Shown piece by piece: positions 19,976-26,147 of a stretch of DNA of 56,296 nucleotides. The stretch covers positions 1 to 56,296 of the forward strand of contig JBFYMA010000021.1 of NCBI GenBank assembly GCA_041305085.1, read 5' to 3'. A program made the translations under genes and the position numbers. The notes beneath the pieces are model-generated. The model worked only from the letters and a program-made list of their open reading frames with translations. It had not been told where the DNA came from and made no database searches. Position 1 is the first letter of the stretch. Each line of letters begins with the position of its first letter. The stretch comes from Nanobdellota archaeon (GTDB lineage: Archaea > Nanobdellota > Nanobdellia > Woesearchaeales > UBA9642).

Positions 19976-19985
19976 TTTTAAATAT
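19976..19985 (+). promoter_or_regulatory. Putative TATA box for the GHKL-ATPase operon (leaderless-type spacing)
   Basis: TTTTAAATAT lies about 25 nt upstream of ATG 20006. Confidence 0.35.
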
Positions 19986-20005: not shown

Positions 20006-21991
20006 ATGGGAGCTTCAGGCACAGACATAGAAGAGATTATCAATCAATACAAAAACAGACCTATGAAAAGGACTGTAAGCAAAGAATTGCCTGACACTAT
20101 GGGTGATTTAGTGATTCAGAGTTTTGTTGGTGCCATAAGCAAATTACAGAAAAATTCTTATGATGCAGGAGCCCATTTTGTAAAAATTAAGTATGTTCCG
20201 GAAAAACTTCTTTGTATCAGTGATGATGGGCGAAGTGTTGTTCCAAAAGAAATTGAAGATGAAGTTCTGTGTATGGGTGAAAGCCACAAGAAAAAGAAAA
20301 AATTTTCTGAAGATGGGCGGGCATATCTTGGAAAGCATGGAATAATGATGATTGCTGTTAAAAAGCTTGCAGAATATCTACAATTTGATGCCAGAAAGAA
20401 CGGAATACATACAATTATTGAAGAAGATTTGAAACTGCCTCTTACTCTTGACAAGGAAATAGTGCCAAAATTAGTTGAAAGATGCAATCCTGAAGAACAC
20501 GGCACCATAATAACTCTCAAAGGTTTGAGATTTTCAGAACAGGATGTAAGTGAAAAAGACCTTATCCAGAGGCTTGAATGGGAAGCCCCTTTAGACCCTG
20601 AAGATTTCAGAGTTTATGTAAATGATAAGGAGGTAAAATCAAAAATTATTGAAAAAGCTATTTCTCCTTTTAGTGTTAATTTTGAAGGCAAACATTGTGG
20701 AAAAGTTGAAGGAATATTATATCTTACCAGCAAACCTGCACAGCATTATGGCATAAGAATAAGAGTTAATAAGGGAGGCATTGGAAGACCTGATGAGCAC
20801 CAGGCACTGTTAACAAAAGGTTTCAAATACGGAACTGGAGGAAAAATTATAGGAACTATTAATGTTGACGGGCTTGATTCTACAATAATATGGGGCAGAG
20901 AAGGATTTGTAAAAGATCATCCTGCATACAGGGAGTTTTTAACTAATGTGAGAGAACATATAAAAGAAATTAATAACTTTGCCAGCAAGTACGAAGAAGA
21001 TACCAGAGAAAAAAGGGTTGGACAGAAAATAGGAGATATATTAAAAAACATAAAAAAAGCCGCGCTCAAGCCAGAAATTCCTGAAGTCAACCAAGAGACA
21101 CAAATTGTTCTTCGGCAGTTGGAAGACAGAAACAACCCAGGAGAATACAAAAAAGAGAGTAATGTGATTATTTTAAACGAGGACTATCCTGGACTAAGGC
21201 ACTTGCCTACAATGACTCTTGCCCAATACGGAAAAATTGTTGAAAATATATTTGTAGATGTTTTGGCAAGGTCAAGGGTCTCGAAGACAAGCAGGGGCAA
21301 ATGGAACAAGTATGAGACAGAAATGGCGCAGTTGTGGGATTTATTGAGAGTACAGCCAATAAAAAAGCCAGGGTCTGTTTTTGGCTATCTTTATCAAAAC
21401 AAAATATACACAATTTCAGAGCTTTCAAAAGTCAAGGGAGTAAATACAGGAACAACAAAATACCTTGTGGATACAGGATTTTTGAAAATTGAAGGTGAAG
21501 GAATAGTGGGCAAAGAGTATCAAGAGAAAGAAAAGCTTTTGAATGGAATGCTTACTTTGTATGATTTTGTGGATGCTCAAGATTTTACTTCGACAGGCAT
21601 GTATGCAGCTCTTGACAGAGCTTTTGAAATTCTTGAGGCTGCAAAAAAAAATATCCGAATAAGCCCGTTTGTAAGGGTATTTGAAAACGGAAAAACTAGT
21701 TGTTACCTGCTGGAAAGCGTCTGTCTAAAAAGATTTACTGAAATGTTTTTCAAAAGCGGGAAAAGAGGCTCTAATCTTAACGAAACAATAATCCAAAGAT
21801 TTGAAGAATTACAGAGCGAGTATGGAACAATGAGCTCTGCAGGGCACAGCGTAGGGCTTTCTGTCTCAAAAGTCTCTTCTGTTGTTGATTATGCAAGAAA
21901 AAACAATCTTCCAATAAGACTAAATGCCAATAAAATAAGTTTTGCAGATTTTATCGCAGCTTTCCAGCACCAAAGAGGCAATAGGTTTTAG
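20006..21991 (+). CDS. Divergent GHKL (MORC/HATPase_c_3-like) ATPase-fold protein with C-terminal HTH-like modules
   Basis: The ordered motifs are KLQKNSYDAGA (NxxDA), ISDDGRS (G1), LGKHGIMMIAV (G2) and GTIITLKGL. The C-terminal half has excisionase/MerR-like HTH patterns (IYTISELSKVKGVNTGTTKYLVDTGFLK). Confidence 0.6.
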   Translation: MGASGTDIEEIINQYKNRPMKRTVSKELPDTMGDLVIQSFVGAISKLQKNSYDAGAHFVKIKYVPEKLLCISDDGRSVVPKEIEDEVLCMGESHKKKKKFSEDGRAYLGKHGIMMIAVKKLAEYLQFDARKNGIHTIIEEDLKLPLTLDKEIVPKLVERCNPEEHGTIITLKGLRFSEQDVSEKDLIQRLEWEAPLDPEDFRVYVNDKEVKSKIIEKAISPFSVNFEGKHCGKVEGILYLTSKPAQHYGIRIRVNKGGIGRPDEHQALLTKGFKYGTGGKIIGTINVDGLDSTIIWGREGFVKDHPAYREFLTNVREHIKEINNFASKYEEDTREKRVGQKIGDILKNIKKAALKPEIPEVNQETQIVLRQLEDRNNPGEYKKESNVIILNEDYPGLRHLPTMTLAQYGKIVENIFVDVLARSRVSKTSRGKWNKYETEMAQLWDLLRVQPIKKPGSVFGYLYQNKIYTISELSKVKGVNTGTTKYLVDTGFLKIEGEGIVGKEYQEKEKLLNGMLTLYDFVDAQDFTSTGMYAALDRAFEILEAAKKNIRISPFVRVFENGKTSCYLLESVCLKRFTEMFFKSGKRGSNLNETIIQRFEELQSEYGTMSSAGHSVGLSVSKVSSVVDYARKNNLPIRLNANKISFADFIAAFQHQRGNRF

Positions 21992-21993
21992 AG

Positions 21994-23568
21994 ATGATAA
22001 AAAAAGGAGACATATTCGAAGAGATAATTCAAGGAAATCTTTTAAGCGTTTTTTCTATTGATGATCTTGTCAGAAGAGGGGTTAATGAAGCAACAATCAG
22101 GGGCTTAAAGCAGGACAAAATACAAAGAATCAATGGAAACCAGAATTCATTTCTTGGGGCACTTATATTAAATTATTTGATCAGGAAAGTTCCATTTTAT
22201 CAAATAAAAAAAGAAGAAAATTATGTTTCTGCACTTGAGCTTTCACTGGCGCTGGAAATTTCGCTGGAGAAACTCCTAAAAGCAAAGTCAGGAAATAAAA
22301 GAATTGCTAAACTAATTAAAGTGAAGGGAGAACAGGATTACTATATTAATATAAAAGATTTGCATCTCGCTTTAGGGCACAGCAATCCATTAGTTTCTTA
22401 TACACAAAATGATGATCAAGGCGTGTATATTATGAGGGTTCACTCTCTTCCATCAAAGCCTTCTGAAACAGAAAAAATAGCAAATACTAAAGAAATTGAG
22501 AAGACTGGCCAGTTAAAAGAGTCTGAAGAACTGAAAGAAAGACAAGAGCTTATTCAAACTGAAAAACCTCCAAAACACATACCAAAATCCTTTCCTGTTC
22601 CAACTAATACAGAGATCAGGCCAGGAGCAGAGCTATTGACTAATGATGAGAAGCAAAGAAAAGCAGAGAGAAACTTTTATAGATTTAAAGCACAAAAAGC
22701 AAAAGAAGAGCGTGCAGGAGGATCCGGCGCACTGGGATTAAAAGTTGCAAGAGTTGTAAAGTACGAGCCTGTACGAGGCGAGCTTATCCACCCAAACTGG
22801 GAGTGTCCTATTCCTGATGGCTGTAAAGAGCTCAAAGTTTATTATCATCCCATAGAAATAGTCAGTGTTTTCAACATTGATGAAAAAGATTTAATAAATC
22901 AAATAGCTTTTAAAAGAATTCCCTCAAGATTTACTCCTGAAGGGCAGGCGCTTATTCTAAGCTCAAAAGAGCTGAGCAATTATGTCAGTCAAAAAACCAG
23001 GTTTGAAAACATCCAGCCTGAAGGCTTTAAGGTTCTTTTTGGTTTGAAAAAAAGCGAAGAATCTAACAGAAGCCTCTCTGGCTATGGTCTAAACTTAGTT
23101 GTTCCTTTCAAAAGAAAAATAAATATCCGCATAAGCAAACGACCGGAAGATGACAAGTTTTTTCATATTAATGAAAGAGAATATGGGCATGTTTCTGAAG
23201 AAAAGATTAAGCTGGATGAAAATTTCTGGAACTTTTTAAGCACAAATGACAGCTCTCTGCGGGCTCAGGCACATGTTTATGAACCTGGAAAAGTTCTTGA
23301 TCTTGAGCTTGCAGCAAGGTTTTTCAATGGAGATATGCAGTACAAGCCCAAGATAAAACTCATAGACTCAAATGTTCTGCAAAAAATGGTTCAAGAAGGC
23401 ATTTGTGACCTTGATCTGGCGCTGGCAGGAGAGTTTGGAGAACAAAAAATAGAAAATGGCTTTGACATAGAAAGGCTTTATAGGATAAAGAAATCCTTTT
23501 CCCAAGACTATCTGAGAGATTTGTTAGTTAATCACAAACTCAGAGAATATTTTGAGTCCTGTTATTAA
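21994..23568 (+). CDS. Hypothetical protein, operon partner of the GHKL ATPase
   Basis: Its start is 2 nt after the upstream stop. I recognised no catalytic motifs. It has three HTH-like segments and a K/E-rich linker. Confidence 0.6.
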   Translation: MIKKGDIFEEIIQGNLLSVFSIDDLVRRGVNEATIRGLKQDKIQRINGNQNSFLGALILNYLIRKVPFYQIKKEENYVSALELSLALEISLEKLLKAKSGNKRIAKLIKVKGEQDYYINIKDLHLALGHSNPLVSYTQNDDQGVYIMRVHSLPSKPSETEKIANTKEIEKTGQLKESEELKERQELIQTEKPPKHIPKSFPVPTNTEIRPGAELLTNDEKQRKAERNFYRFKAQKAKEERAGGSGALGLKVARVVKYEPVRGELIHPNWECPIPDGCKELKVYYHPIEIVSVFNIDEKDLINQIAFKRIPSRFTPEGQALILSSKELSNYVSQKTRFENIQPEGFKVLFGLKKSEESNRSLSGYGLNLVVPFKRKINIRISKRPEDDKFFHINEREYGHVSEEKIKLDENFWNFLSTNDSSLRAQAHVYEPGKVLDLELAARFFNGDMQYKPKIKLIDSNVLQKMVQEGICDLDLALAGEFGEQKIENGFDIERLYRIKKSFSQDYLRDLLVNHKLREYFESCY

Positions 23569-25198: not shown

Positions 25199-25555
25199 AT
25201 GGCTTCACTAAAGCAATTTCAGGAACACTGCAAAAAAACTGCAAAAAAGTTTGAGTCAAGGGAAAAAGAGATAATGACTTGGGGATTGGGAATAAGCGGA
25301 GAGGCTGGTGACCTTGCAGGCTGCATCAAAAAGACATACGCCCACGACAACGACCAGATAACAGGCATAAGGGAAAACATTGGGGACATGATGTGGTATG
25401 CTGCAATGGTCTGCAATTTCTATGGCTGGGATTTTGAGGAAATCCTGGATGAAAATATTGACAAGCTCAAAAAGAGGTATCCAGAAGGCAAATTCACAAC
25501 AGAAAAAGCCAAAAGAGGAGGCACCAGGATTGACTGGAACGAGCAAACCAAATAG
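25199..25555 (+). CDS. MazG-like nucleoside triphosphate pyrophosphohydrolase
   Basis: GLGISGEAGDLAG..K and IGDMMWY..M patterns, with a KL.KRYP end. Confidence 0.75.
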   Translation: MASLKQFQEHCKKTAKKFESREKEIMTWGLGISGEAGDLAGCIKKTYAHDNDQITGIRENIGDMMWYAAMVCNFYGWDFEEILDENIDKLKKRYPEGKFTTEKAKRGGTRIDWNEQTK

Positions 25556-26147
25556 CCTTCTTCCTTTTGTTGAGGAGGCAACTGTTGAAGAATATATTTC
25601 AAAAGTGCAGAATGCATGGCAAGGGGACCATTACACAGACTTTATTCTTCATATTGGCAAGAGTGTTGAGGAAGAAAATTTTAATGTTTTTTTAATAGCT
25701 CAAGCGTACCTGCAAAACTCTGAAAGTAATCTTTCCTGCCTTGAGCTTGGCTATGTTACATTCATGGCGCTGAATGAAAGCGGCAAGCTGCCAAAAGTTT
25801 CGGAAAAAATTTATGCAGACTCTTTTTTAAGGTTTGGTGCCCACAAGAAGTTCCAAAGCCACTTAATAACTGTTCAGGAATCTTTGCAAATGAACAACGA
25901 ATTCCTAGCAACACTTTTTCACAATGTTGATTATAACTCAAAAAGGTGTGCTTTGCACATTTACGGGGCGCTGGAAATGCAGGCACTGACTGATTATAAA
26001 AAAATTTCCAAAGCTTCAGCAGGACAAAAAGTGCTTGCCGATGAGGCAGAGTACTTTCAGGGAGACCTTAGGCTAAATGCAGAAATAGCATTTCTTACAG
26101 GAAACGGCCAGTTGGCAGCAAGAATCAGGGATGCGCAAAAGAAATGA
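25530..26147 (+). CDS. Hypothetical protein (start uncertain)
   Basis: The tracked ORF starts at 25398 but would overlap mazG by 158 nt. In-frame alternatives are TTG 25530 and GTG 25605. I recognised no family. Confidence 0.45.
   Translation: MTGTSKPNSLLPFVEEATVEEYISKVQNAWQGDHYTDFILHIGKSVEEENFNVFLIAQAYLQNSESNLSCLELGYVTFMALNESGKLPKVSEKIYADSFLRFGAHKKFQSHLITVQESLQMNNEFLATLFHNVDYNSKRCALHIYGALEMQALTDYKKISKASAGQKVLADEAEYFQGDLRLNAEIAFLTGNGQLAARIRDAQKK

What the first reader, a model, noticed from the sequence alone, without database searches (positions are those of the whole stretch)
20006..23568. Orphan two-gene operon: divergent GHKL/MORC-like ATPase fused to HTH modules, plus a 524-aa partner built from similar HTH-like modules
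The first ~190 aa of ORF 20006-21991 carry Bergerat-fold motifs in the canonical order: KLQKNSYDAGA (NxxDA), ISDDGRS (G1), LGKHGIMMIAV (G2) and GTIITLKGL. The general-base Glu four residues before the Asn is Lys here, so ATP hydrolysis may be altered or lost. The C-terminal half contains at least two segments with the excisionase/MerR-type HTH pattern: IYTISELSKVKGVNTGTTKYLVDTGFLKIEG and GLSVSKVSSVVDYARKNNLPIRL. The second ORF starts 2 nt after the first stop. It has no catalytic motif I recognise. It repeats the same kind of segment three times (FSIDDLVRRGVNEATIRGLKQDKIQRI; YVSALELSLALEISLEKLLKAKSG; IEIVSVFNIDEKDLINQIAFKRIP) around a K/E-rich linker. Prokaryotic GHKL ATPases of this flavour are mostly known from restriction and defence islands (the paraMORC context). 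This pair has no nuclease or methylase neighbour. It is wedged between the primase and htpX-lemA with 40-nt and 7-nt gaps, and its composition looks host-like. It could be a new defence module or a chromatin or replication-associated DNA clamp. I know of no described system with this domain combination.
Basis: partly seen in the sequence, partly recalled or inferred. Interest (0 to 1): 0.7.

Follow-up and report, generated by a model that had tools for sequence, protein, structure and literature searches.

The report
Archaeal MORC-like ATPase and adaptor pair
The two genes are real and form an operon, but they are not orphans: they are a divergent copy of an undescribed gene pair in DPANN archaea that joins a MORC/MutL-type ATPase to an adaptor protein which in most relatives carries a bacterial-type sigma-70 module, and this may bear on the open question of what partners the odd sigma factors of these archaea.

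Summary
Both ORFs sit exactly where stated. ORF1 residues 39-167 pass Pfam's cut-off for HATPase_c_3, and a confident AlphaFold model matches the GHKL+S5 modules of MutL, MORC2/3, Hsp90 and GyrB. The Glu-to-Lys change is real.

"Orphan" is wrong. An exhaustive HMMER search finds 69 clusters with E<1e-30, most aligning end to end. In 14 of 18 non-redundant family loci the next gene encodes a partner with a conserved ~125-aa N-domain. Ten partners continue into sigma-70 regions 2-4. One is annotated [quoted passage not shown].

ORF2 shares only the N-domain. Its C-terminal ~300 aa has one relative, beside ORF1's closest homologue, and no detectable sigma similarity. None of 81 control loci with generic GHKL genes has the N-domain.

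ORF1 is also degenerate in the ATP site (E46K, D55G, G77S, M78V, R257G). Its first C-terminal HTH-like segment shows weak but consistent MerR/excisionase-type signal. The idea that ORF2 is built from the same modules is not supported.

There is no defence-system match, no conserved defence neighbourhood and no viral or plasmid copy.

Best reading: an ATP-gated DNA clamp or regulator with a swappable adaptor. I found no prior description.

The parts
19976..19985 (+). A/T-rich TTTTAAATAT element about 26 nt upstream of the ORF1 ATG. Possible archaeal TATA box, which would imply a leaderless or near-leaderless transcript. Inferred only.
   Evidence: Sequence read. Spacing judged from general knowledge of archaeal promoters. 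Not tested.
20006..21991 (+). ORF1, 661 aa. Member of a conserved ~620-680-aa GHKL-S5-HTH protein family found in DPANN/Woesearchaeota-type archaea.
   Evidence: ORF. (69 clusters with E<1e-30, aligned over aa ~18-659). (43-member alignment A1). (member named 'ATP-binding protein [Candidatus Woesearchaeota archaeon]').
20063..20590 (+). GHKL (Bergerat-fold) ATP-binding domain, aa ~20-195, with a degenerate active site: E46K, D55G, G77S, M78V. N50, D73, G75, G109, G112, G166 and T167 are kept.
   Evidence: Pfam HATPase_c_3 above cut-off. PDB profile hits MORC2 1.5e-10 and MutL 2.4e-9. Column counts.
20591..20920 (+). S5-fold transducer-like domain, aa ~196-305. The family motif 'GIHVYVNGRRVGDP' reads 'GIRIRVNKGGIGRP' here (R257G). 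The near-invariant Arg298 is kept.
   Evidence: AlphaFold model, mean pLDDT 88.9. Foldseek: MutL NTD TM 0.58, MORC3 0.54, MORC2 0.51, GyrB 0.51 over ~330-390 columns..
20921..21397 (+). Long helical linker (aa 306-354) followed by a family-specific alpha/beta region (aa ~355-464) of unknown fold.
   Evidence: Secondary structure of the model. No PDB or Pfam match.
21398..21580 (+). First MerR/excisionase-type winged-HTH-like segment, aa ~465-525 (IYTISELSKVKGVNTGTTKYLVDTGFL...).
   Evidence: Sub-threshold but convergent hits: HTH_17 9/24, MerR_1 7/24, MerR 5/24. PDB MerR 3gpv E 0.01, Cox 4lhf E 0.02. Strand-helix-helix-strand pattern in the model.
21812..21976 (+). Second HTH-like segment, aa ~603-657 (GLSVSKVSSVVDYARKNNLPIRL...), apparently a diverged repeat of the first.
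   Evidence: hhalign of segment A against segment B: probability 72%, E 3.5e-5. Helix-helix-strand pattern in the model.
21994..23568 (+). ORF2, 524 aa. Adaptor/partner gene that starts 2 nt after the ORF1 stop.
   Evidence: A full-length homologue lies next to ORF1's closest relative (L086; E 2e-33, aa 6-514).
22006..22368 (+). Partner N-domain, aa ~5-125. This is the only part shared with the sigma-type partners of related loci. Fold unknown. Proposed docking domain for the ATPase (inferred).
   Evidence: Pairwise E 2e-13 and 2e-11. HMM hit 2e-45 and presence in 14 of 18 family loci. Absent from 81 control loci. No Pfam or PDB hit.
22369..22668 (+). Poorly conserved K/E-rich linker of ORF2, aa ~126-225.
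   Evidence: Gappy, low-identity stretch in the ORF2/L086 alignment. Composition read from the translation.
22669..23535 (+). ORF2-type C-terminal module, aa ~226-514. Unknown function. It takes the place of the sigma-70 regions 2-4 found in most relatives.
   Evidence: Conserved with the L086 partner only. No Pfam, NCBIfam, PADLOC or PHROG hit. No meaningful PDB hit. hhalign against the sigma part: probability 0.15%.

Best explanation
The locus is a diverged copy of a conserved two-gene module of DPANN-type archaea.

Gene 1 encodes a MORC/MutL-type GHKL+S5 ATPase. Enzymes of this kind dimerise through their N-termini on ATP binding and act as clamps or switches. Here the ATPase is extended by a helical linker and two MerR/excisionase-like winged HTHs, so it probably binds DNA itself.

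Gene 2 encodes an adaptor whose conserved ~125-aa N-domain is proposed to dock on the ATPase. The adaptor's C-terminal module is exchangeable. In most relatives it is a sigma-70 region 2-4 module that recognises promoter-like DNA.

I propose that the pair acts as an ATP-gated DNA-bound clamp or regulator that the adaptor targets or reads out, controlling transcription or local chromatin.

In this window both halves have drifted. The ATPase has lost its general base and other ATP-site residues, so it probably binds ATP poorly or cannot hydrolyse it and acts as a static scaffold. The adaptor carries an unknown ~300-aa module instead of sigma.

Shown: the family, the conserved pairing, the domain make-up and the active-site degeneration. 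Inferred: physical interaction, DNA binding, clamp action and regulatory output.
For: - ORF1 is a GHKL protein, and its model matches the GHKL+S5 modules of MutL, MORC2/3 and GyrB.
- The family has full-length members with an intact ExxxN...DxGxG...GxxG site in nearly all of them.
- 14 of 18 non-redundant family loci have an N-domain partner directly downstream, with overlaps or gaps of 0-4 nt: 10 sigma type, 2 ORF2 type, 1 N-domain only, 1 cut by the contig end.
- 0 of 81 control GHKL loci have the N-domain.
- The sigma parts are genuine: Sigma70_r2 6e-17 and r4 5e-16, SigA structures 7e-46, and an NCBI name.
- The C-terminal module of the partner varies or is missing while the N-domain and the whole ATPase stay conserved, which fits an adaptor model.
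- There is an HTH signal in ORF1's C-terminal half.
- Neighbourhoods differ from locus to locus and are mostly housekeeping genes.
- From established knowledge: GHKL+S5 ATPases (MutL, GyrB, Hsp90, MORC) work as ATP-driven dimerising clamps, and Glu-to-Ala or Glu-to-Gln changes of the general base abolish hydrolysis but not binding.
Against: - There is no direct evidence for an ORF1-ORF2 interaction, for DNA binding or for any effect on transcription.
- All HTH hits are below the family cut-offs.
- The N-domain and the ORF2 C-terminal module have no recognisable fold. The only ORF2 model had pLDDT 33.
- 4 of 18 loci have no adjacent partner.
- Sampling started from the ATPase side, so I do not know how many N-domain or sigma genes occur without the ATPase.
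- The degenerate ATP site may mean that the window copy no longer works like its relatives.
- Archaeal origin is shown for the window, L082, L083 and L094. It is not shown for L087 and L090, which carry the most canonical sigma partners.
Confidence: 0.4

Rival explanations
1. Partner-switch regulator of the archaeal sigma-like proteins. The GHKL protein is primarily a regulator of the sigma-type partner, acting like an anti-sigma factor, a holdase or a loader. It would bind the partner's N-domain and release or activate it in an ATP-dependent way. The window pair would be a derived version in which the regulated protein is no longer a sigma.
For: - The ATPase and sigma genes are tightly coupled in 10 of 18 loci.
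- The N-domain sits where region 1.1 lies in primary sigmas.
- GHKL-fold anti-sigma factors exist: SpoIIAB and RsbW, and the related CapK (PMC13373217).
- Castelle et al. 2021 found sigma-70 genes prevalent in Woesearchaeota but no anti-sigma factor and called their control unclear (PMC8204110).
Against: - The ATPase is of the MORC/MutL type with an S5 domain and its own HTHs. It is not the small HATPase_c_2 kinase type, and there is no STAS partner.
- The ATPase stays full length and conserved where the partner lacks sigma (window, L086, L101) or is absent (L091, L098, L105). That is unexpected if its only job were to control a sigma.
- Nothing shows that the sigma-like proteins act with archaeal RNA polymerase.
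Confidence: 0.22
2. Anti-virus or anti-plasmid defence module of the paraMORC kind. The GHKL+S5 ATPase would sense or loop foreign DNA, and the partner would be a variable sensor or effector.
For: - Prokaryotic MORC and paraMORC ATPases are mostly found in restriction-modification contexts (Iyer et al. 2008, PMC2292703).
- The best NCBIfam and PADLOC matches are the N-terminal GHKL parts of BbrUII/HgiDII-type restriction enzymes.
- Family members are fast-diverging (25-32% identity), the partner C-terminus is exchangeable, and distribution is patchy.
- L082 has an integrase and an MmeI-type R-M gene 4-8 kb away. L105 has a ParE/MazE pair and a LAGLIDADG gene nearby.
Against: - No nuclease, methylase, helicase, TIR or other effector domain is present in either protein or conserved nearby.
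- PADLOC gives no system-level match, and ORF2 hits nothing.
- Neighbours are mainly housekeeping genes: primase, ribosomal proteins, HtpX, EF-1alpha, GluRS.
- A sigma-70 module is not a typical defence effector.
- The window ATPase lacks its catalytic Glu.
Confidence: 0.13
3. Functionally decayed relic. In this genome the pair has lost its original activity (dead ATPase, sigma module lost) and persists without a specific role, or with a minor structural one.
For: - ORF1 deviates at 9 of the 48 most conserved family columns, 7 of them in the ATPase domain, against 0-3 for most of its closest relatives.
- ORF2 lacks any sigma signal.
- L099 shows that family genes can decay: its GHKL gene is split into two ORFs.
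Against: - Both ORFs are intact and long (661 and 524 aa) with tight coupling retained.
- ORF1 keeps 39 of 48 conserved positions, including the whole C-terminal architecture, and folds confidently.
- The ORF2-type C-terminal module is conserved over ~290 aa in a second, distant genome whose ATPase has a canonical ATP site. The module is therefore under selection and is not a by-product of decay.
Confidence: 0.1

Closest known systems
Prokaryotic MORC and paraMORC GHKL+S5 ATPases (Iyer, Abhiman & Aravind 2008, PMC2292703)
   Same: N-terminal GHKL domain followed by an S5-fold transducer and a family-specific C-terminal extension. Pfam HATPase_c_3. MORC2 is the best PDB sequence hit, and MORC2/3 are among the best structural matches. 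The family motif 'GIHVYVNGRRVG' resembles the MORC signature GhXhhpXXRhl.
   Different: No link to restriction-modification, helicase or nuclease genes. The C-terminal extension carries HTH-like modules. The conserved partner is a sigma-70-type or other adaptor protein. The S5 and C-terminal profile alone does not retrieve MORCs. The window copy lacks the catalytic Glu and the motif's Arg.
MutL N-terminal ATPase (LN40) and the Hsp90 and GyrB ATPase modules
   Same: Same two-domain GHKL+transducer architecture: TM 0.58 to B. subtilis MutL NTD and 0.51 to GyrB 43K. Sequence profile hits to MutL at 2e-9. By analogy, the same ATP-driven N-terminal dimerisation would be expected.
   Different: No MutL C-terminal dimerisation/endonuclease domain, no Toprim domain, and no Hsp90 middle or C-terminal domain was detected. 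Alignments to full-length Hsp90 have rmsd 12-19 A.
GHKL-fold anti-sigma kinases SpoIIAB/RsbW and the CapK-CapS pair (PMC13373217)
   Same: A GHKL-fold protein encoded next to, and presumably acting on, a transcription factor. In relatives of this locus that factor is a sigma-70-family protein.
   Different: Those are small HATPase_c_2 kinases without an S5 domain, and they phosphorylate STAS-domain antagonists. Here the ATPase is MORC/MutL-like, 650 aa long, has its own HTHs, and no STAS protein is involved.
Sigma-70 family factors (SigA/RpoD type), including the sigma-70 genes reported in Woesearchaeota (Castelle et al. 2021, PMC8204110)
   Same: Partners of most family members carry regions 1.2, 2 and 4. 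Two of them keep the WWIRQ signature. One is annotated as a Woesearchaeota sigma-70 factor.
   Different: All carry the extra N-domain. ORF2 of this window has only that N-domain and no detectable sigma region.
BbrUII/HgiDII family restriction enzymes (NCBIfam NF050001)
   Same: Best NCBIfam match, E 5e-15, over the N-terminal GHKL part (ORF1 aa 44-212 against profile positions 25-205).
   Different: The score of 55 bits is far below the family cut-off of 550. Only the ATPase domain matches, and there is no nuclease part.

Membership tests
GHKL (Bergerat-fold) ATPase superfamily | Sequence and fold match to the ATP-binding domain | tested here: met
   Pfam HATPase_c_3: 39.8 bits against a cut-off of 25. 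Found in 43 of 43 family members. Foldseek probability 1.00 to MutL, MORC, Hsp90 and GyrB.
GHKL (Bergerat-fold) ATPase superfamily | Intact catalytic and ATP-binding motifs (motif I Glu and Asn, DxGxG, GxxGxG) | tested here: not met
   The window has E46K, D55G, G77S and M78V. N50, D73, G75, G109 and G112 are kept. Relatives are canonical: Glu in 38 of 43, and Gly at the position of residue 77 (Ser in the window) in 42 of 43. The window protein is a member by fold but probably not an active hydrolase.
MORC family sensu Iyer et al. 2008 | GHKL domain followed by an S5-fold domain | tested here: met
   The model (pLDDT 88.9) aligns over ~375-390 columns with MORC3 (TM 0.54, rmsd 5.0) and MORC2 (TM 0.51, rmsd 4.7).
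MORC family sensu Iyer et al. 2008 | MORC-specific GhXhhpXXRhl motif in the S5 domain | tested here: inconclusive
   Family consensus 'GIHVYVNGRRVG' fits most positions but not the polar position or one hydrophobic position. The window has 'GIRIRVNKGGIG' and lacks the Arg. The S5 and C-terminal profile retrieves no MORC from PDB.
paraMORC families 1-5 | Conserved neighbourhood with R-M methylases, nucleases or SF-II helicases, or a fused nuclease or TIR domain | tested here: not met
   No such domains in either protein, and none conserved around 18 family loci.
MutL | C-terminal dimerisation/endonuclease domain | tested here: not met
   PDB profile hits to MutL cover only profile positions 26-91. 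The C-terminal profile hits nothing.
Anti-sigma GHKL kinases (SpoIIAB/RsbW/CapK) | Small HATPase_c_2 kinase domain with a STAS-domain partner | tested here: not met
   No HATPase_c_2 or STAS hit for ORF1, ORF2 or family members. Architecture compared with PMC13373217.
Sigma-70 family (for ORF2) | Regions 2 and 4 | tested here: not met
   No Sigma70 hit at E<=10. hhalign of the ORF2-type C-terminal region against the sigma part of partners gives probability 0.15%. Partners in 10 related loci do meet it.
New GHKL-S5-HTH plus N-domain-adaptor pair (defined here) | ORF1 aligns end to end with the ~650-aa family, including the family-specific C-terminal region | tested here: met
   HMM E 4e-198 over aa 15-660. 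phmmer hits cover aa 18-659. The C-terminal region is absent from 81 control GHKL loci.
New GHKL-S5-HTH plus N-domain-adaptor pair (defined here) | The downstream gene starts within a few nt and encodes the ~125-aa N-domain | tested here: met
   ORF2 aa 5-125 gives HMM E 2e-45. The gap is 2 nt. The same layout occurs in 14 of 18 loci.
Known anti-phage defence systems (PADLOC-DB 2.0) | Match to a system component beyond a generic domain | tested here: not met
   Only a weak match to the N-terminal GHKL part of REase_II models (E 5e-5) for ORF1, and nothing for ORF2.

The most novel reading that the evidence does not exclude
The GHKL-S5-HTH ATPase is the missing dedicated partner of the sigma-70-like proteins of DPANN (Woesearchaeota-type) archaea. 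Together they would form a transcription or chromatin control system that combines a MORC-like ATP-gated DNA clamp with a bacterial-type promoter-recognition module inside an archaeal cell. The adaptor's N-domain would be a new docking domain that lets different output modules be plugged onto the same ATPase: sigma, the ORF2-type module, or none.
Probability: 0.3. Interest if true: 0.8.

Novelty: new variant of a known kind. Interest (0 to 1): 0.6.

Why it matters
Archaea initiate transcription with TBP, TFB and TFE, not with sigma factors. Castelle et al. 2021 (PMC8204110) reported sigma-70 genes as prevalent in Woesearchaeota, found no anti-sigma factors, and called their control unclear.

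A conserved, translationally coupled MORC/MutL-type ATPase next to these sigma-like genes gives that question a concrete candidate partner that can be tested. The open points are whether the two proteins bind each other, and whether they act on DNA, on archaeal RNA polymerase or on chromatin.

It also extends MORC-like GHKL+S5 ATPases in prokaryotes beyond restriction-modification contexts, and it defines a new ~125-aa adaptor domain with exchangeable output modules.

The window's own copy is the odd one out, with a dead-looking ATPase and a non-sigma output. That makes it a natural experiment on what the module does without ATP hydrolysis and without sigma.

Tried and rejected
- **Word-indexed homologue searches.** ORF1 gave only one N-terminal GHKL hit and ORF2 gave nothing. 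Repeating with the family profile was swamped by generic GHKL proteins. These false-orphan results were overturned by the exhaustive HMMER search.
- **P0002 (L001) as a relative.** It shares only the GHKL domain, and its neighbours are unrelated to ORF2.
- **Genome-collection scan with the full family alignment.** I reused them as a negative control.
- **Metagenome scans.** The ORF2+L086 alignment found no relatives. The 15-sequence C-terminal alignment was too diverse to give a pattern.
- **Single-sequence AlphaFold model of ORF2.** Mean pLDDT was 32.6, so it was unusable and I did not fold-search it.
- **ORF2's C-terminal region as a degenerate sigma.** The shared 'RIP' motif in alignment A2 suggested it, but hhalign gave probability 0.15%. 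Rejected for lack of evidence, although the alignments are shallow.
- **Partner N-domain as a copy of ORF1's HTH modules.** No profile similarity.
- **Hsp90-like full-length architecture.** The alignments are long but have rmsd 12-19 A and TM ~0.33. Not supported.
- **Viral or plasmid origin.** No family hit in IMG/VR, in phage or plasmid records or in BFVD beyond generic GHKL folds. The only PHROG hit covers the N-terminal GHKL part.
- **Literature.** Five searches found no description of a GHKL/MORC and sigma pairing in archaea.

Full report

ORF1 (20006-21991, +, 661 aa) and ORF2 (21994-23568, +, 524 aa) are exactly as described. The ORF1 stop (TAG, 21989-21991) is followed by 2 nt and the ORF2 ATG. 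On one side, 40 nt away, lies a divergently transcribed gene with DNA_primase_S and DNA_primase_lrg domains in one 490-aa protein. On the other side, 7 nt away, lie convergent Peptidase_M48 (HtpX) and LemA genes.

Further neighbours are a ribosomal-protein operon, a MazG-like gene and a Hef-type helicase/ERCC4 nuclease, so the window is archaeal. From my own knowledge, a fused primase is typical of DPANN archaea. GC over the pair is 0.356-0.372 against about 0.38 for the window. An A/T-rich TTTTAAATAT element lies about 26 nt upstream of the ORF1 ATG. This could be an archaeal TATA box for a leaderless transcript, but that is inference only.

**2. ORF1 is a GHKL+S5 ATPase with a damaged active site**

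- Residues 39-167 match Pfam HATPase_c_3 (E 5.5e-10, 39.8 bits, cut-off 25).
- NCBIfam and PADLOC match only the N-terminal GHKL part of BbrUII/HgiDII-type restriction enzymes, far below the family cut-offs.
- An AlphaFold model built on a 43-member family alignment is confident (mean pLDDT 88.9).
- Foldseek aligns its first ~350 residues with two-domain GHKL+transducer modules: B. subtilis MutL NTD (TM 0.58), MORC3 (0.54), MORC2 (0.51) and GyrB (0.51). Full-length Hsp90 alignments are poor, with rmsd 12-19 A.
- With the family profile, the best PDB sequence hits are MORC2 (1.5e-10) and MutL (2.4e-9), over the ATP-binding domain only.

That column is Glu in 38 of 43 members, and Lys occurs only in the window. 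The window protein also deviates at D55G, G77S and M78V (the DxGxGM box), R257G in the S5 motif 'VNGRR', and four further positions. That makes 9 of the 48 most conserved columns, 7 of them in the ATPase domain, whereas most of its 20 closest relatives deviate at 0-3. Asn50, Asp73, Gly75, the G2 glycines and Arg298 are kept.

From established knowledge of MutL, GyrB, Hsp90 and MORC mutants, loss of the general base abolishes hydrolysis. Together with the G77S change in the adenine pocket, I infer a hydrolysis-dead and perhaps ATP-binding-impaired protein.

**3. ORF1 is not an orphan**

The word-indexed searches suggested it was. The exhaustive HMMER search found 381 relatives at E<=1e-3 and 69 at E<=1e-30. 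The best ones are 620-680 aa long and align over residues ~18-659 at 25-32% identity. One is annotated 'ATP-binding protein [Candidatus Woesearchaeota archaeon]'.

The family-specific region beyond the S5 domain comprises, in order:

- a long helical linker (aa 306-354);
- an alpha/beta region;
- two segments with a strand-helix-turn-helix-wing pattern.

The first of these two segments (aa ~455-530) gives sub-threshold but convergent hits: HTH_17 in 9 of 24 members, MerR_1 in 7 and MerR in 5, plus MerR regulators and P2 Cox in PDB. It is related to the second segment (hhalign probability 72%, E 3.5e-5).

**4. The pairing is conserved, and the partner is usually a sigma-70-type protein**

Contig look-ups and a metagenome scan with a family-specific sub-alignment gave 18 non-redundant family genes with readable downstream DNA (duplicates resolved). 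I classified the downstream genes with HMMs built here.

| Gene directly downstream of the ATPase | Loci |
|---|---|
| N-domain plus sigma-70 regions (one locus has two such genes in tandem) | 10 |
| N-domain plus ORF2-type C-terminal module (window and L086) | 2 |
| N-domain only (161 aa) | 1 |
| N-domain, cut by the contig end | 1 |
| No adjacent partner | 4 |

In the 14 loci with a partner, that gene overlaps the ATPase gene or starts within 0-4 nt of its stop.

The sigma parts are genuine:

- Sigma70_r2 scores 6e-17, r4 5e-16 and r1_2 6e-8 in P0183.
- SigA structures match at 7e-46 over residues 73-426.
- phrog_351 'RNA polymerase sigma factor' matches at 4e-57.
- One partner is 'sigma-70 family RNA polymerase sigma factor [Candidatus Woesearchaeota archaeon]', with an accession number adjacent to that of its ATPase.

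Region 2.1-2.2 and the region 4.2 HTH are conserved in all sigma-type partners. The WWIRQ signature survives in only two.

As a control, 81 loci with generic HATPase_c_3-type genes from the first, unspecific genome scan contain no N-domain and no family C-terminal region.

Archaeal origin is supported for L082 (thermosome), L083 (NCBI label) and L094 (eEF1A-type elongation factor). It is undetermined for L087 and L090.

**5. What ORF2 is**

Residues ~5-125 are the shared N-domain, with pairwise E 2e-13 and 2e-11 to sigma-type partners. The rest is a K/E-rich linker followed by a ~290-aa module.

That module has exactly one detected relative: the gene next to P0004, ORF1's closest homologue (E 2e-33 over aa 6-514). 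P0004 keeps a canonical ATP site, so the ORF2-type module is not merely a by-product of ATPase decay.

The module has no Pfam, NCBIfam, PADLOC or PHROG hit and no meaningful PDB hit. It shows no profile similarity to the sigma part. The N-domain has no Pfam or PDB match and no similarity to ORF1's C-terminal region. The claim that ORF2 is built from ORF1-like HTH modules is therefore not supported. The single-sequence model of ORF2 was unusable.

**6. How it most likely works**

Shown:

- a MORC/MutL-type GHKL+S5 protein with probable DNA-binding HTHs;
- a tightly coupled partner gene with a constant N-domain and an exchangeable C-terminal module.

Inferred:

- The N-domain docks the partner onto the ATPase.
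- Like other GHKL+S5 proteins, the ATPase dimerises on ATP binding and acts as a clamp or switch on DNA.
- The partner's C-terminal module, usually a sigma-like promoter-recognition unit, targets or reads out that switch.

The ATPase stays full length and conserved where the partner has no sigma module or is absent. I take this to mean that the ATPase is the core of the system and not merely an anti-sigma factor. A partner-switch role remains the main rival.

A defence role is less likely. No effector domains are present, there is no PADLOC system match, neighbourhoods are not conserved and are mostly housekeeping, and no viral or plasmid copies were found.

In the window, the degenerate ATP site and the non-sigma adaptor suggest a derived, probably hydrolysis-independent version. 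Full decay is unlikely, because both long ORFs are intact and the ORF2-type module is conserved in a second genome.

**7. Comparison with what is known**

Iyer et al. 2008 define MORCs by GHKL+S5 plus a GhXhhpXXRhl motif. They define paraMORCs by the same architecture in R-M contexts. This family meets the architecture, has a near-match to the motif, and does not meet the R-M context. The S5 and C-terminal profile alone does not retrieve MORCs. I therefore file it as MORC/MutL-like, not as a MORC.

The anti-sigma kinases SpoIIAB and RsbW, and the CapK-CapS pair, are GHKL-fold proteins next to transcription regulators, but of a different branch and with STAS partners.

Castelle et al. 2021 reported sigma-70 genes as prevalent in Woesearchaeota, with no anti-sigma factor found and the control mechanism 'unclear'. 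Five literature searches found no description of this pairing. The held library is incomplete, so absence there is not proof.

**8. Verdict**

The 'orphan' label and the 'similar HTH modules' idea are wrong. The locus turns out to be a divergent member of an undescribed, conserved ATPase-adaptor module that mostly pairs a MORC-like ATPase with archaeal sigma-70-like proteins.

Novelty: a new variant of known kinds. Interest: 0.6. The family-level finding is more interesting than the window copy itself, and every mechanistic step beyond domain content and gene linkage remains inference.

Noticed in passing
L083:3130-4376 (also L084, and L085:2586-3832): About 6 kb upstream of the ATPase-sigma pair, the same Woesearchaeota contig carries a 319-aa HATPase_c_2 protein followed by a 96-aa DUF4325 protein. 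This is the SpoIIAB/RsbW-like kinase plus STAS-like antagonist layout, a second possible sigma-control module in a lineage for which no anti-sigma factors were reported.
   Followed up: no
L106:7991-10380 (same lineage as L097:1682-3432): Two sigma-type partner genes, each with N-domain plus sigma regions, lie in tandem after one ATPase gene. One ATPase may therefore serve several adaptors.
   Followed up: partly
L101:1160-1642: The partner is reduced to the N-domain alone (161 aa) directly after the ATPase gene. This supports the view that the N-domain is the constant, essential part of the partner.
   Followed up: partly
L099:1405-3410: The family ATPase gene is split into two overlapping ORFs (203 and 497 aa) and has no partner. 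It may be a frameshifted pseudogene or an assembly error.
   Followed up: no
L083:15034-15393 and L089:8101-8583: SET-domain (lysine methyltransferase) genes lie 1.6-3 kb downstream of the pair in two otherwise different loci. This may be coincidence or a chromatin-related link.
   Followed up: no
window:18493-19965 (-): A single 490-aa protein carries both the small-subunit (PriS) and large-subunit (PriL) primase domains. This fused primase points to a DPANN-type archaeon.
   Followed up: partly
window:1-56296: No tRNA gene and no Rfam family at gathering score were found in the whole 56-kb window. Several stretches have low GC (0.28-0.31) at about 33-34 kb, 50-51 kb, 52-53 kb and 55-56 kb.
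   Followed up: no
window:25199-26147 (+): A MazG-like ORF (25199-25555) overlaps by 158 nt a 249-aa ORF (25398-26147) that has no Pfam hit. The second gene probably starts later than listed, or one of the two is not real.
   Followed up: no
L087:2381-3664 and L090:2940-4229: These two partners keep a near-canonical primary-sigma signature (WWIRQ, regions 1.2/2/4). The other sigma-type partners are much more diverged. The host domain of these two contigs was not established.
   Followed up: partly
literature (PMC12647753): A 2025 study reports two rpoS-like sigma genes on DPANN viral genomes, one on a prophage. I did not test whether those carry the N-domain or sit next to a GHKL gene.
   Followed up: no
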